Shown here piece after piece: positions 12,158 to 17,068 of a stretch of 64,000 nucleotides of DNA. A program made the translations under genes and the position numbers. Source of the DNA: Promethearchaeota archaeon (GTDB lineage Archaea > Asgardarchaeota > Lokiarchaeia > Sigyniarchaeales > SOKP01); contig JAHPZA010000006.1 of NCBI GenBank assembly GCA_019058445.1, positions 384,001 through 448,000 on the forward strand, given 5' to 3'. Each line of letters opens with the position of its first letter. The first letter of the stretch is position 1. The notes beneath the pieces were generated by a model. That model saw only the letters and a program-made list of their open reading frames with translations. It was not told where the DNA came from and did not search any database.

Positions 12158-12573
12158 AATTATCAATTTTTGAAAGAGATCTATAATTCTATGATTTATA
12201 AAACTATTCAGTTATATAAATAAGAGAGGTTTAAGGATTAATAATTAATACAGCAATAAACAATCTCTAATGATAATATTGGGATTCTACTTATTATTCT
12301 ATAGAATTTGGTTTATATAAATCATTTTTATATAAGATTTGCATTGTGACTGTGAAATCATGTTAAAGGCTCACCCTATTGTGATGGCGGATTTTGGTAT
12401 TGATGTAGAATAGTCAAATTTTTCTCCGTTATTTTATTTTTGTCGTGCTTGCCTCCTTCTGATGGGATGTAGGATTTTCTTCATATTCCATATGATATTA
12501 CATCCCTATTTTTATTATGTAATTCTATATAATAAAAAAAGAAAAATAAAAAAAAAAATTAATTTTTAAGAAT

Positions 12574-14519
12574 TTAAATACCTAATTTTGTTCTATTTGA
12601 TTCTATATGCTCCATCATAGCATCAACGGCTTGAACAGGATCTGTTTCAACATGCAGGATTCCCCCTGTAACATCCTTACAATCTACAGTTAAGAGTTTA
12701 ACTAAATTGGGACCGCCAGTGACAGTAGGGACCGGATTAACATATGTGTAAAGACCAAAGGCTAATGCGAAGATTGCATCAATTGTTGCCTTCTGCTCCA
12801 TTGGAACTCGCTAATATTGAATTAATTAGCAATATATTCTGGAGCAGCCGCGACTATAGGCAGATCTGGAATAGGCACACCTCCAAGAGCCCCAGATATA
12901 GCTCCGATTAAATCAGCTATTCGCCCTGTATCTGTGCATGTACCATAACTTAACACAGGGGGAACTGATAATTTCTCACATAAAGCTTTTAGACCTGGTC
13001 CAGCTAAATCTTTTGCTTCAAAAGAACAGAGTCCTGCCACTTGTAATGCTCCATTACCACACCCCATAGATAGGACCAATACATCCCTTTTAATTAATTC
13101 CTTAGCAATATTTATAGTATGTACATCTTGTCCATAATCTCTTAACGTTGTACAAGAAACTAATCCAGCTACACCTCGAATTGTGCCATTTTTTATAGCC
13201 TCTAATAAAGGCTCAATGCTACCACCGAGTGCTGCAACTATACTTTCAGTTGAAAATCCAACCAATGCTTCATTCATCTCTAATCCTGTCACTGGCTCTA
13301 TGTTTGCTCTCCGTTCTTGAAAATTATCAATAGCCATTTGTAAGAGTTTTCCTGCCTGTTCTTCTGCCTTTTCAGGAAGATAATCTAATCTTTCGGTTAT
13401 TCCTTCAAAAGCTACAACTTCCGATACTGGAATCAATTTAAACTTATATCTTTCAGCATAGAGCGGATCTATGGGCATAGAACAGTTCATGTCACATACA
13501 AACGCATCAATACAACCGCTCGCTAAGATTGCTTCTTGCATGATCCAATTTCCTGTGAATCCATAAAACACATCATCCATTTCCCATCGCTGTATCATTT
13601 CTTGCCCAGTTTCTATGTTAGCTATGATTCTTAATCCCTTAGCACCAACTGCTTTAGCTTTTTCTTGCCATTCTTGTTTACGCGCCAATTGAACCATCGC
13701 AAATCCTAAAAATGGTTCATGACCATTAGGAACAACATTCACATAATCGGGGTCCAAAACACCTAAGTTTACTCGCATTTTATGGGGTTTAGGTACATTA
13801 AATAAAATATCTTGACAAAATTCATTCACTATCTGACTCTGGTATGCCATAGCCACTCCTAGTCTCATCGCCTTAAGTGCTAAGCTGGCATAATAACCAT
13901 CTATATTTGTAAGACATGAACTAGTTGCCAACATCATTTCGCTATAAATTCCTCCCGGAAAGATATTTAATTTTTTCCAGACATCCTTCCTTTCTTTTGG
14001 TGCTAATGCTTCTACTATTTTACTTGAATCCGTGTAAGATCTATTAAAATCATCTTTTACAAATTCGCATAGGCGAAGCGCAATTTCTTTATCTGAACCA
14101 GAAGTATCAACTCCAAGACGTTTTGCAAAACTTTTCAACTTATCCGGTTCGCTAATTTTATAAGGTGTTTTACCTTCAGCTGTTGCCTTAAGGGTTTTAA
14201 TAGTTGTTTCTGTATGATAATGGTACGTGGAAGCCCCTAAAACATTTCTAAGTAGCATCATTCGCATTGCCATTCCATCTGCTGTAATTCCACATACACC
14301 TCTTTTATCGATAGAAGCATCCGCTCTACAAGGGCCATTAGAACATAAATCGCATCGAGCACCTTTTAAGCAAAATGGACATCTTTTATCAGGGACACCT
14401 CCAAAACCTTGTGCCTCAAAACGATCCCAGATATTAATCATACCATCTTTTTTAATTCTCTCATAAACTTTTCGTACTGACTCATGATACGATAATCTTT
14501 CACCTTCCAATTTCCACAC
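12574..14519 (-). CDS. cooS: CooS-family (Ni-CODH/HCP scaffold) protein, spliced: exon 1 14519-12834, exon 2 12801-12574, about 637 aa
   Basis: CPFC..GARCDLCSNGPC, GHEP, DMNC, SCTT, GCG, GTCTD. Removing the 32-nt insert joins AAPEY to MEQKATIDA, the expected continuous motif. True start may be TTG 14510 after GAGGTG. Confidence 0.9.
12802..12833 (-). other. Putative BHB (tRNA-endonuclease type) intron in cooS mRNA, 32 nt
   Basis: CUGCUCCA-GAAU-AU^A-UUGCUAAU-(9-nt loop)-AUUAGCGA-GUUC-CA^A-UGGAGCAG: 8-bp exon stem, 4-bp central helix, two 3-nt bulges, 8-bp intron stem. Confidence 0.88.
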
Positions 14520-14611
14520 CTCATTACTTTGTTAAAAATTTTTTAAGATAGATTGGTTTATAAAAATTCTATCTCTAAATTATTGAAATTTCTTAAGTAA
14601 ATATATCTATA

Positions 14612-14632
14612 TTCGAACATGTTCGAACATGT
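14612..14632. promoter_or_regulatory. Overlapping 16-bp palindromes upstream of cooS, candidate operator
   Basis: TTCGAACATGTTCGAA (14612-14627) and ACATGTTCGAACATGT (14617-14632) are both perfect palindromes, next to an AT-rich TATA-like stretch. Confidence 0.4.
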
Positions 14633-14692: not shown

Positions 14693-17068
14693 TTAGTCAT
14701 ATTCCTTTGCAACTGGATATCCTTTACGATGCCACATCATCATTCCACCAGTCAAATTTCTCACGTCTTTAAACCCTGCTTGTACTAAAAGTTGGGCTGC
14801 CATCATCGATCGTGCTCCACTATGGCAAATAGTTATTACTTCTTCATCTTTATAATCGTTGAGAGCATCGAAATCATTCATGAGTTCACCAAGTGGCACT
14901 AATTTAGCTGATTTAATATGGCTTCCCACCCCATTATATTCCTGAGGAGTGCGTACATCAACCAGGATAGCAGGTGCGTCCTCTGACTCAAGCCTCTCAT
15001 ATAACTCATCAGCAGTTATGTCTGATAAGGCAGGGGCTTCAGGGGTTCTAAGTTCTTTTCTTGTTTTCCGTTCAACCTTTACAGGTGAAATAATTTCCCC
15101 TTGAGGGATTGTACCCTTCTCCAACGTAGCAACAAGCTTTCCTTCTTCTTTCCCTAAATATAATAAGTCAATGGCCTCATTTAATTTTGAATATGCTTCC
15201 ACACTTGATTTAAATCCTGGATCCGTTGCATATACTTTCAATTTTTTGCCTTCTGGGAGTGTATCAAGCCCTTTAATTAATGCATTTAAAGGTCCTGGAC
15301 AGCTTAATCCACAGGCATCTACTGTAATAAATTCATCATCTCCTGTTGCTTTTTCTTTTACGAAAGTTTCCATTTGCGCCTCAAATCCTCCACATGAGGC
15401 TACGATCTCTTCACATGAAGCACTTGCCATTTCATAGAGCTTATACCCTCCTGTTAGATCGTATACTTCTTTGTAACCATGCTGGAGAAGTATTCGAGTT
15501 GCTAAATAGCTTCTATATCCCACCTCACAATAAGCATAGATGGGTTTATTCTTTGGAATCTCTTCCATTCTATCTCTTAATTCTTCAATCGGAATATTTA
15601 TAGATCCCTCAATGGCTCTAGCGTTATGCTCTTCTGGTGTTCTTACATCTAATAAGACTACACCATTGTTTTTAAGATCATCAACATCATGCCAATGCCA
15701 AATAGGCATATCTCCTTTGAGGAAATTTGCTGCAACAAATCCAGCCATATTCACCGGATCTTTAGCTGAGCTGTAAGGAGGTGCATATGTTAGTTCTAGC
15801 TCTTCTAAATCAAAAACTGTACCTCCCATTTTTATAATCGTGGATATTACATCAATTCTCTTTTCCGTCCCTTGCCCTCCCACGATTTGTGCTCCTAATA
15901 CTTTTCCTGTAGGGACTTCAAACAGAAGTTTAAAAGCCATAGGAACAGCTCCCGGGTAATACCCAGCATGGTTATTAGGATGGACATATACTTTATCATA
16001 TTTAATCTCAGAATTTTTCAGCTGTTTTTCTGTTAAACCCACGGCTGCCACACTCACATCAAAAACTTTTACTACTGAAGCTCCTAAAATACCCTTATAT
16101 TCATTATCTCTCCCTGCTATGTTATCTGCTGCGATTCTTCCTTGCTTATTAGCAGGACCTGCTAAGGCAATAGCGATTGGATCTCTCGTTTGAAAATGGG
16201 TTACCTGAACGGCATCTCCTACAGCGTATATGTGAGTATCGGAAGTTTGCATTTTCTTATTCACAATAATATGCCCTCTCTGCCCTAAATCCAGTCCAGC
16301 GTCTTTTGCTAATTTACTCTGTGATCTAATTCCAATCGCTAATATAACCAGGTCTGTTTCAATCATACGACCATTTTTAGTCTTCACATAAGGCTTATCA
16401 CCATTAATTCTTCCAAAAGACTCTACGGGGTCCTCCAGAACTAAGCACACCCCATTTAAAATTAATTCCTGATGAATGAATTGGGCAATTTCTTTGTCGA
16501 ACGCGGGCATAACTTGATCAAGCATTTCTACAATTTTTACTTTAACACCTTTTTCTACTAAATTTTCTGCCATCTCTAATCCAATAAACCCGCCACCTAC
16601 AATAACCGCATGATTAATTGTTCTCTTATCTACAAAGTCTCTAATCTTGACTGCATCAGGAATTGTCCATATGGTATAATAAGGAATAGAATCTAATCCT
16701 TGAAATGGAGGAATTATTGGCTGTGAACCTGTAGCTAGAAGTAAATAATCATAATAAAGCTCGTACTCTTGCATATTTTGTAAATCTCTCACTTTAATCC
16801 TTTTCTTGGCTTTATCGATTGAAATCGCCTCGTTATTAACTCTTACGTCTATATTGAACCGTTCAAGAAATCTTTCAGGTGTGACCAATTCCAATGATTC
16901 TTTTTCCTTAATTACATTTCCAACGTAATATGGTAAGCCACAATTTGCAAAAGATACGTAAGGACCTTTATCAAGCATGATTATTTCAAAATCTTCTCTT
17001 AATCTCCTTAGACGAGCTGCGGCAGATGCGCCACCAGCAACTCCACCAACAATTATTACTTTCTTCAT
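14693..17068 (-). CDS. CoA-disulfide/persulfide reductase-like flavoprotein fused to rhodanese, TusA and a second rhodanese domain
   Basis: GGVAGG, SFANCGLPY, GGGFIGLE, YAPPYS; rhodanese DVRT..YCEVGYRS; TusA DACGLSCPGP; second rhodanese ICHSGARS. Confidence 0.9.
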   Translation of the reverse strand: MKKVIIVGGVAGGASAAARLRRLREDFEIIMLDKGPYVSFANCGLPYYVGNVIKEKESLELVTPERFLERFNIDVRVNNEAISIDKAKKRIKVRDLQNMQEYELYYDYLLLATGSQPIIPPFQGLDSIPYYTIWTIPDAVKIRDFVDKRTINHAVIVGGGFIGLEMAENLVEKGVKVKIVEMLDQVMPAFDKEIAQFIHQELILNGVCLVLEDPVESFGRINGDKPYVKTKNGRMIETDLVILAIGIRSQSKLAKDAGLDLGQRGHIIVNKKMQTSDTHIYAVGDAVQVTHFQTRDPIAIALAGPANKQGRIAADNIAGRDNEYKGILGASVVKVFDVSVAAVGLTEKQLKNSEIKYDKVYVHPNNHAGYYPGAVPMAFKLLFEVPTGKVLGAQIVGGQGTEKRIDVISTIIKMGGTVFDLEELELTYAPPYSSAKDPVNMAGFVAANFLKGDMPIWHWHDVDDLKNNGVVLLDVRTPEEHNARAIEGSINIPIEELRDRMEEIPKNKPIYAYCEVGYRSYLATRILLQHGYKEVYDLTGGYKLYEMASASCEEIVASCGGFEAQMETFVKEKATGDDEFITVDACGLSCPGPLNALIKGLDTLPEGKKLKVYATDPGFKSSVEAYSKLNEAIDLLYLGKEEGKLVATLEKGTIPQGEIISPVKVERKTRKELRTPEAPALSDITADELYERLESEDAPAILVDVRTPQEYNGVGSHIKSAKLVPLGELMNDFDALNDYKDEEVITICHSGARSMMAAQLLVQAGFKDVRNLTGGMMMWHRKGYPVAKEYD

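What the first reader, a model, noticed from the sequence alone, without database searches (positions are those of the whole stretch)
12793..12847. Canonical bulge-helix-bulge intron interrupting the cooS coding sequence
Seen: the cooS ORF ends ...AAPEY-IAN* and the missing C-terminus (MEQKATIDA...) resumes in another frame 32 nt after the Tyr codon. On the mRNA strand, CUGCUCCA (12847-12840) pairs with UGGAGCAG (12800-12793), GAAU pairs with GUUC as a 4-bp central helix, AUA and CAA are 3-nt bulges on opposite strands, and UUGCUAAU/AUUAGCGA forms the intron stem. Known: archaeal EndA cuts after the second nucleotide of each BHB bulge and RtcB ligates. Applying that rule gives CCA GAA UAU|AUG GAG CAG = PEY-MEQK, in frame with no residue gained or lost. 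Inference: a real spliced mRNA intron. The unspliced product would lose the last 75 aa, including the conserved Lys of the MEQKA motif. The only well-characterised archaeal mRNA intron I know of is in crenarchaeal cbf5, so this could be new; a literature check is needed.
Basis: partly seen in the sequence, partly recalled or inferred. Interest (0 to 1): 0.95.

Follow-up and report, generated by a model that had tools for sequence, protein, structure and literature searches.

The report
tRNA-type intron splitting Asgard cooS gene
The carbon-monoxide dehydrogenase gene (cooS) of this Asgard archaeon is interrupted by a 32-base insert shaped like the introns that archaea cut out of tRNAs, and comparison with relatives indicates it is a real, old, maintained intron in a protein-coding message, a kind published so far for only one archaeal coding sequence (cbf5).

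Summary
On the minus strand, cooS is split by 32 nt (12833-12802). These fold as a canonical bulge-helix-bulge (BHB): 8-bp exon helix, 4-bp central helix, two 3-nt bulges, 8-bp intron helix.

Cutting after the second bulge nucleotide joins ...APEY to MEQKATIDA... More than 80 uninterrupted orthologues examined, and PDB 7b7q, read the same way.

Five distinct sequences from six independent assemblies carry a 32-nt insert at the same codon:
- The intron helix pairs in all five, with compensatory changes.
- Exon 2 is under strong purifying selection although synonymous sites are saturated.
- The intron alleles keep the synonymous codons that the exon helix needs.

The genome encodes EndA and RtcB. 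Pseudogene, artefact and frameshift readings are excluded or very unlikely; a two-polypeptide split gene is a weak rival.

Splicing was not shown at the RNA level: no RNA data reached the junction.

In the papers searched, only crenarchaeal cbf5 (coding) and a Haloferax 5'-UTR case are published. I therefore class it as a new member of a known kind, in a metabolic gene of an Asgard archaeon.

This scan has noted similar candidates before, on other DNA and elsewhere in this genome; those notes are AI-made and mostly unchecked.

The parts
12834..14519 (-). cooS exon 1 (562 codons to ...AAPEY). The start is taken as the first GTG of the ORF; the true start was not determined.
   Evidence: ORF list. 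PDB 7b7q match, query 8-563 to chain 4-555, E 2.6e-179. Pfam PF03063 profile positions 3-458.
12802..12833 (-). 32-nt BHB intron. The cuts are predicted between 12834|12833 and 12802|12801. Because A stands at both 12833 and 12801, the junction can slide by 1 nt with the same product.
   Evidence: Inserts of the same length at the same codon occur in L026, L035, L107/L111 and L108.
12840..12847 (-). Outer (exon) helix, 5' strand, CUGCUCCA; lies in the codons for Ala-Ala-Pro.
   Evidence: Pairs 3-8 of this helix are kept in nearly all five alleles. All intron alleles use the Pro codon CCA.
12836..12839 (-). Central 4-bp helix, 5' strand, GAAU (exon).
   Evidence: 95% of cells in this helix are paired.
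12833..12835 (-). Bulge 1, AUA, holding the 5' splice site after its second nucleotide.
   Evidence: Invariant in all five alleles. The cleavage rule is stated in PMC2738675.
12808..12832 (-). Intron hairpin: 8-bp helix UUGCUAAU / AUUAGCGA around the 9-nt loop UAAUUCAAU.
   Evidence: The helix is 100% paired in five alleles, and three of its pairs are changed on both sides.
12804..12807 (-). Central helix, 3' strand, GUUC (intron).
   Evidence: In L107 a G-to-A change turns U-G into U-A. In L108 a C-to-U change repairs the mismatch seen in L026.
12801..12803 (-). Bulge 2, CAA, holding the 3' splice site after its second nucleotide. Its last A is the A of the Met codon.
12793..12800 (-). Outer (exon) helix, 3' strand, UGGAGCAG; lies in the codons for Met-Glu-Gln.
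   Evidence: All intron alleles use the Glu codon GAG, which only 26 of 80 intron-less alleles use.
12574..12801 (-). cooS exon 2 (75 codons MEQKATIDA...KLGI plus stop). It holds the Lys that aligns with Lys563 of CODH-II.
   Evidence: PDB 7b7q, chain 555-629, E 1.1e-22; 1su6, chain 560-634. Pfam PF03063 profile positions 458-512. Between intron alleles pN is 0.05-0.18 and pS 0.64-0.83.

Best explanation
The 32 nt at 12833-12802 are an archaeal bulge-helix-bulge intron inside the cooS coding sequence of an Asgard (Promethearchaeota, Loki-type) archaeon.

Proposed mechanism:
1. The pre-mRNA folds so that exon bases (Ala-Ala-Pro paired with Met-Glu-Gln) form the outer helix.
2. Exon GAAU pairs with intron GUUC to form the 4-bp central helix.
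3. The intron forms its own 8-bp hairpin.
4. The tRNA-splicing endonuclease EndA cuts after the second nucleotide of each 3-nt bulge.
5. RtcB joins the exons, and probably circularises the 32-mer.
6. The mature mRNA reads ...AAPEY-MEQKATIDA... and encodes a full-length 637-residue CooS.

Unspliced RNA would give a 565-residue product that lacks the last 75 residues, including the catalytic-site lysine.

Shown here: the structure, the exact restoration of the frame, conservation with covariation, selection on exon 2 and on the exon-helix codons, and presence of both enzymes.

Inferred: that cleavage and ligation actually occur in the cell.

The intron is old and was lost precisely (or moved) several times.
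For: 1. Canonical hBHBh' geometry at the stated bases.
2. The rule-based cut gives APEY|MEQKATIDA, which is:
   - identical to the more than 80 uninterrupted orthologues examined;
   - colinear with 7b7q, where Tyr554 is followed by Met555;
   - consistent with Pfam PF03063, whose two halves abut at profile position 458.
3. Five distinct sequences from six independent assemblies carry a 32-nt insert at the same codon.
   - 94% of pair cells are standard pairs, against 20-45% when partners are slid.
   - The intron helix is 100% paired, with three pairs changed on both sides.
   - Single changes in the central helix are compensating: L107 U-G to U-A; L108 repairs the L026 mismatch.
4. Exon 2 is intact in all alleles and under purifying selection: pN 0.05-0.18 against pS 0.64-0.83.
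5. Intron identity is 50-84%, while third codon positions of the flanks are 46-56% identical. The intron is therefore as old as the divergence of these genes and has been kept.
6. All intron alleles use CCA, GAA-TAT and GAG, the codons that make the exon part of the BHB. Their nearest intron-less sisters each differ at one or more of these synonymous sites.
7. It is the only cooS-type gene in this genome, and exon 2 is single-copy in the two other intron-bearing genomes.
8. EndA (202 aa, both Pfam domains) and RtcB are encoded. Of 23 tRNA genes that ARAGORN finds, 19 carry introns.
9. Asgard EndA is reported as the broad-specificity (alpha-beta)2 type with the L1 loop, the type that splices cbf5 pre-mRNA (PMC5829648; PMC2738675).
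10. The insert is in the DNA of the source run.
Against: - There is no RNA-level evidence. No listed RNA run holds this stretch. The RNA contigs that could be laid come from relatives and stop in exon 1, the nearest ending at 12902.
- In L026 the central helix has one A-C mismatch, so that allele is a relaxed BHB.
- Only five sequences support the covariation. The three double changes sit in one lineage (L026/L108).
- Exon 2 begins with a native ATG, so separate translation cannot be formally excluded.
- A second (beta) EndA subunit was not found with the queries used.
Confidence: 0.85

Rival explanations
1. Split gene: the insert ends the first polypeptide (...PEYIAN*). The last 75 residues are translated separately from the native ATG, and the two chains assemble into a working enzyme. 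The hairpin would be incidental, or a coupling element.
For: Exon 2 starts with ATG, and every allele has an in-frame stop inside the insert. Purifying selection on exon 2 fits this reading as well as it fits splicing.
Against: - The start codon is buried in bulge 2 and the 8-bp outer helix.
- By my reading of the sequences, the last 15 nt of the insert show no Shine-Dalgarno-like GGAGG/GGUGA in any allele.
- A spacer has no reason to keep exactly 32 nt, two invariant-length bulges, a 4-bp helix with compensating changes and a covarying hairpin.
- A spacer would not fix the synonymous codons that build the exon helix.
- No orthologue examined shows cooS as two separately translated genes at this point. 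One (G020) ends six codons downstream, with its C-terminal part not found.
Confidence: 0.07
2. Dead gene: a hairpin-forming 32-nt insertion frameshifted cooS, and the BHB likeness is chance.
For: The reading frame is broken in the DNA. One relative (G020) does carry a truncated cooS.
Against: - The insert is shared by lineages whose synonymous sites are saturated, yet exon 2 remains intact with pN far below pS.
- The structure covaries.
- It is the only copy of this gene in three genomes.
- Chance odds for such a motif at the frame-restoring position are about 1 in a million.
Confidence: 0.03
3. Recoding: the ribosome reaches the exon 2 frame by a programmed frameshift, or by hopping over the insert.
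For: A stable hairpin follows the break. Hairpins accompany known recoding sites (my own knowledge of T4 gene 60 bypassing).
Against: - In this allele frame 0 stops at TAA (12824-12822), before the last stop of the exon 2 frame (a TAG three codons upstream of the ATG). No single shift can connect the two frames.
- L035 and L107 have the same layout.
- For bypassing, the take-off codon UAU has no matching landing codon before AUG.
Confidence: 0.02
4. Assembly or sequencing artefact: the 32 nt are not in the genome.
For: The genome is a metagenome-derived assembly in 10 contigs.
Against: - An independent Logan contig of 30.5 kb from the source run covers 12573-14619 with 0 differences and no gap.
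- Five other assemblies from other studies carry homologous 32-nt inserts at the same codon.
Confidence: 0.01

Closest known systems
cbf5 pre-mRNA intron of Crenarchaeota (Watanabe 2002; Yoshinari 2006; Yokobori 2009, PMC2738675)
   Same: - A short BHB-type intron (16-44 nt there, 32 nt here) inside a protein-coding sequence, close to a catalytic residue.
- Cuts predicted between the second and third bulge nucleotides.
- Hosts with many, often non-canonical, tRNA introns and an (alpha-beta)2 EndA.
- Patchy distribution explained by gain and loss.
   Different: - A different gene (a metabolic Ni,Fe-CODH-family enzyme, not an RNA-modification enzyme) and a different phylum (Asgard).
- The motif here is fully canonical hBHBh'. 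Most cbf5 introns are described as unconventional or relaxed.
- cbf5 splicing is shown by cDNA and by in vitro cleavage. Here it is inferred.
BHB intron in the 5' UTR of Haloferax volcanii HVO_1309 mRNA (PMC7714728)
   Same: An mRNA substrate of the archaeal splicing endonuclease. Cleavage was confirmed in vivo and in vitro in that study.
   Different: That intron lies in an untranslated leader, so it does not interrupt a reading frame. The host is a euryarchaeon with a different EndA architecture.
Archaeal tRNA and rRNA BHB introns (Marck and Grosjean 2003; Asgard tRNA census, bioRxiv 10.64898/2026.10.13.758758; PMC11291895)
   Same: The same structural motif and the same presumed enzymes (EndA, RtcB). 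Asgard genomes, this one included, have most tRNA genes interrupted.
   Different: The host RNA is a messenger. The exon half of the motif is built from codons, which constrains synonymous sites. A covariance model of this intron found no sibling copy in the genome.
HAC1/XBP1 unconventional mRNA splicing in eukaryotes (IRE1 cleavage; RtcB ligation in animals)
   Same: Protein-only, spliceosome-independent removal of a short intron from an mRNA, which changes the C-terminal reading frame. Ligation is by a tRNA ligase (my own knowledge; reviewed in PMC13149111).
   Different: A different nuclease (IRE1, not EndA) and a different motif (twin stem-loops, not BHB). That splicing is regulated by stress; no sign of regulation was tested here.

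Membership tests
Archaeal BHB (EndA/RtcB-dependent) intron | Two 3-nt bulges on opposite strands, separated by a 4-bp helix | tested here: met
   AUA and CAA flank GAAU/GUUC. Bulge lengths are invariant in five alleles. The central helix is 95% paired.
Archaeal BHB (EndA/RtcB-dependent) intron | Flanking helices on both sides (the h and h' of hBHBh') | tested here: met
   8-bp outer and 8-bp inner helices are both present in the minimum-energy fold, z = -4.7.
Archaeal BHB (EndA/RtcB-dependent) intron | Cutting between the second and third bulge nucleotides gives a functional mature RNA | tested here: met
   The junction APEY|MEQK is identical to the more than 80 intron-less orthologues examined, and colinear with 7b7q and PF03063.
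Archaeal BHB (EndA/RtcB-dependent) intron | The structure is conserved, with compensatory changes, among homologous introns | tested here: met
   Five alleles: 94% of cells paired, three pairs with changes on both sides, and slid controls at 20-45%. The sample is small.
Archaeal BHB (EndA/RtcB-dependent) intron | The host encodes the splicing endonuclease and the RtcB ligase | tested here: met
   PF01974 at 68 bits, PF02778 in the same 202-aa ORF, and PF01139 at 574 bits. A beta subunit was not found.
Archaeal BHB (EndA/RtcB-dependent) intron | Spliced RNA and a free or circular intron are seen in the cell | tested here: inconclusive
   No RNA run was listed for the stretch. RNA contigs of relatives end in exon 1.
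Archaeal BHB (EndA/RtcB-dependent) intron | Cleavage by purified EndA in vitro | not testable with these tools
   This needs a bench experiment.
cbf5 intron family of Crenarchaeota | Homologous position in cbf5, at the codon of the catalytic Asp | tested here: not met
   The host gene is cooS (PF03063), not cbf5. The mechanism is alike, but this is not a member of that intron family.
Programmed frameshift or translational bypass | A stop-free path from the upstream frame into the downstream frame | tested here: not met
   The frame-0 stop (12824-12822) lies upstream of the last stop in the exon 2 frame. L035 and L107 are the same.

The most novel reading that the evidence does not exclude
EndA/RtcB splicing of messenger RNAs is a general layer of gene expression in Asgard archaea, not a one-gene oddity. 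In that reading, many protein genes per genome carry roughly 30-nt BHB introns that are old, are lost and perhaps regained at hairpin-forming codon stretches, and may gate enzyme production by whether they are spliced. That would be a protein-only mRNA splicing system in the closest archaeal relatives of eukaryotes, mechanistically akin to HAC1/XBP1 splicing.

Support here is partial:
- A second strong case in this genome: a 31-nt insert in ychF whose removal restores the P-loop.
- Many unchecked notes of this scan.
Probability: 0.3. Interest if true: 0.9.

Novelty: new member of a known kind. Interest (0 to 1): 0.72.

Why it matters
In the library searched, published archaeal biology knows one protein-coding sequence interrupted by a tRNA-type intron (crenarchaeal cbf5) and one 5'-UTR case. 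This finding has four consequences.

- **Scope.** A conserved, selected BHB intron in a central metabolic enzyme gene of an Asgard archaeon shows the tRNA-splicing machinery is very probably used on messages outside Crenarchaeota.
- **Annotation.** Gene callers split or truncate such genes. Here the calls would be a 565-residue "CooS" without its catalytic lysine and an orphan 75-residue ORF.
- **A testable substrate.** It gives a clean, canonical substrate for testing mRNA splicing by Asgard EndA.
- **Intron evolution.** The pattern of one old intron, four scattered carriers and many precise losses offers a small model for intron gain and loss in the lineage closest to eukaryotes.

Tried and rejected
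1. **RNA evidence.** For the 627-nt junction region, no RNA holder was listed. Three metatranscriptome runs with small word shares were laid at 88% likeness. Their contigs are 88-95% alike, so they come from relatives. They cover parts of exon 1 only (nearest 12902-13076), and none reaches the junction. This is no evidence either way.

2. **Genome-wide structural scan for BHB motifs.** The loose motif gave 6657 hits, against 6718 for a mirror-image control. After an ORF-restoration filter there was still no clear excess: 19 against 11, and 152 against 133. In this 31% G+C genome, structure alone cannot count mRNA introns. One strong hit, C4:155143-155173 inside a sulfatase gene, proved a false positive because the unspliced frame is open.

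3. **Covariance model.** A model of the intron (R1) searched on the genome found only the intron itself. The next hits had E above 3. There is no repeated or mobile family here.

4. **Search for a spliced copy in the protein database.** A full-length protein with an exon-2 part identical to this allele would mark a spliced or intron-less copy of the same strain. The best match was 95% identical, and none was identical.

5. **EndA beta subunit.** It was not found with the alpha subunit as query. The weak hit at C3:126738 is a methyltransferase.

6. **Possible second intron or trans-spliced gene in G020.** cooS there ends six codons after the site. The rest of the gene is absent from the locus and was not found elsewhere in that 86%-complete genome. 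It reads as a truncation or an assembly join.

7. **One origin in one clade.** This is rejected by the tree.

Full report
**What is there**

The window is G000:C6:384001-448000 of a 4.6-Mb, 31% G+C genome in 10 contigs. Its cooS orthologues sit in MAGs labelled Promethearchaeota and other Asgard groups.

On the minus strand an ORF of 565 codons (14519..12822) ends ...AAPEYIAN*. A 75-codon ORF (12801..12574) begins MEQKATIDA... in another frame. Between the Tyr codon and the ATG lie 32 nt (12833-12802).

- an 8-bp outer helix made of exon bases (12847-12840 with 12800-12793);
- a 4-bp central helix, GAAU/GUUC;
- 3-nt bulges AUA and CAA on opposite strands;
- an 8-bp intron helix around a 9-nt loop.

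The stretch folds far better than shuffles (z = -4.7). The full bulge-helix-bulge (BHB) form is within 1 kcal/mol of the minimum.

**Does the predicted cut make sense?**

Cutting between the second and third bulge nucleotides is the rule stated for cbf5 in PMC2738675. It joins GAA TAT to ATG GAG, which reads ...APEY-MEQKATIDA...

- The best solved relative, 7b7q, aligns exon 1 up to Tyr554 and exon 2 from Met555, with no residue gained or lost.
- Pfam PF03063 matches exon 1 at profile positions 3-458 and exon 2 at 458-512.
- More than 80 uninterrupted orthologues examined, from Asgard and other genomes, read APEYMEQKATIDA at this point.
- The Lys of MEQK aligns with residue 563 of CODH-II chains, so the unspliced product would lack it.

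**Is it in the DNA?**

An independent Logan contig (30.5 kb) of the probable source run covers 12573-14619 without a difference.

**Relatives with the same insert**

- Among 400 Asgard genomes, a pattern for the insert matched three: this one (genus g1) and two species of genus g11.
- These two are the records 9R3_44 and DZ1M.411 found.
- A metagenome scan added two more sequences on three contigs from other projects.
- In total there are five distinct sequences from six assemblies. Each has exactly 32 nt at the same codon.

Structure in these alleles:
- 94% of pair cells are standard pairs, against 20-45% when partners are slid.
- The intron helix pairs in all five, and three of its pairs are changed on both sides.
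- In the central helix, L107 turns U-G into U-A, and L108 repairs the single mismatch of L026.
- The three double changes come from one lineage, so the covariation is real but thinly sampled.

**Selection**

- Exon 2 is intact in every intron allele.
- Between alleles, its non-synonymous difference is 0.05-0.18, while synonymous difference is 0.64-0.83, which is saturated.
- Intron identity is 50-84%, against 46-56% at third codon positions of the flanks. The intron is therefore about as old as the split of these genes and has been kept. It is not a recent accident.
- All intron alleles use CCA (Pro), GAA-TAT and GAG (Glu), the codons that build the exon half of the motif.
- Among 80 intron-less alleles these choices occur in 39, 41 and 26 cases. 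Each nearest intron-less sister differs at one or more of them.
- The gene is the only one of its type in this genome, and exon 2 is single-copy in the two other carrier genomes.

**Enzymes**

- The genome encodes a 202-residue EndA with both Pfam domains, and RtcB.
- ARAGORN finds only 23 tRNA genes, 19 of them with introns. This fits reports that Asgard tRNA genes are heavily interrupted.
- PMC5829648 reports that Asgard archaea have the (alpha-beta)2 EndA with the L1 loop, the broad-specificity type of Crenarchaeota.
- I did not find the second subunit.

**History**

- On a protein tree of 84 alleles, the four full-length carriers are scattered. Intron-less sisters are supported at 99.
- Holding the carriers together costs 222 log-likelihood units (p-AU 3e-53).
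- Given the age shown, the simplest reading is one old gain and many precise losses. Old lateral moves are not excluded.
- A covariance model of the intron finds no other copy in the genome.

**Rivals**

- *Dead gene:* contradicted.
- *Artefact:* contradicted and the other assemblies.
- *Frameshifting:* impossible in this allele. The frame-0 stop (12824-12822) precedes the last stop of the exon 2 frame. Hopping also lacks a landing codon.
- *Two separately translated chains:* this is the only rival left.
  - It explains selection on exon 2.
  - It does not explain the fixed length, the bulges, the covarying helices, the constrained exon codons, or a start codon buried in an 8-bp helix with no Shine-Dalgarno-like bases upstream.

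**What is missing**

Splicing itself is not shown. No RNA run was listed for the junction region, and RNA contigs of relatives end in exon 1.

**Comparison with what is known**

In the library searched, the only published BHB intron in an archaeal coding sequence is crenarchaeal cbf5. A 5'-UTR case exists in Haloferax. I found no paper on such introns in Asgard protein genes.

It works like the cbf5 intron but is not a member of that intron family, because the gene and the phylum differ. I class it as a new member of a known kind.

**Context from this scan**

Earlier notes list other candidate BHB introns in protein genes of this same genome and of more than 100 others. One note claims environmental RNA support. 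These are AI notes.

I checked one myself. A 31-nt insert at C6:1272337-1272367 in ychF, when removed, restores the P-loop GKPSSGKST.

My own structure-only scan could not count such introns, because chance motifs are as common as in a mirror-image control.

**Verdict**

This is a real, conserved, selected BHB intron in cooS, with confidence 0.85. Proof at the RNA level is outstanding.

Noticed in passing
G000:C6:1272337-1272367 (+), = L118:438-468: A 31-nt insert with a 9-bp outer and an 8-bp inner helix sits in a BHB layout inside a ychF-type GTPase gene. Removing it gives MSNIIIGIVGKPSSGKSTFLNA..., an intact Walker A loop and a 408-codon ORF. It is a second strong mRNA-intron candidate in this genome.
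   Followed up: partly
G000:C4:155143-155173 (+), = L119:344-374: A strong BHB-like motif (7-bp outer and 7-bp inner helices, 31 nt) lies inside a sulfatase gene, but the unspliced frame is open across it. It is a chance motif, and a warning against calling introns from structure alone.
   Followed up: yes
L014 / L073 (G020:C121:12009-16688): In this relative, cooS ends ...APEYMEQKATNTYKIK*, six codons past the intron site. A hemerythrin-like ORF follows. The missing 68 residues were not found elsewhere in the 86%-complete genome. It is a truncation or an assembly join.
   Followed up: partly
L022 (G033:C1:2629741-2634423): The cooS frame of this relative is reported open for 1401 codons, and its likeness to CooS ends near residue 600. 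This may be a fusion or a lost stop.
   Followed up: no
window 14693-17068 (-): Directly upstream of cooS on the same strand lies a 791-residue fusion protein: pyridine-nucleotide disulphide oxidoreductase, its dimerisation domain, rhodanese, TusA and a second rhodanese. It is a likely operon partner of this CooS.
   Followed up: no
whole genome G000: ARAGORN finds only 23 tRNA genes in 4.6 Mb, and 19 of them have introns. Most tRNA genes are probably too interrupted to be recognised.
   Followed up: no
window 12902-14436: Contigs of three sediment metatranscriptome runs, 88-95% alike, lie on exon 1. RNA libraries from sediments therefore hold cooS of close relatives, although DNA carry-over is not excluded.
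   Followed up: partly
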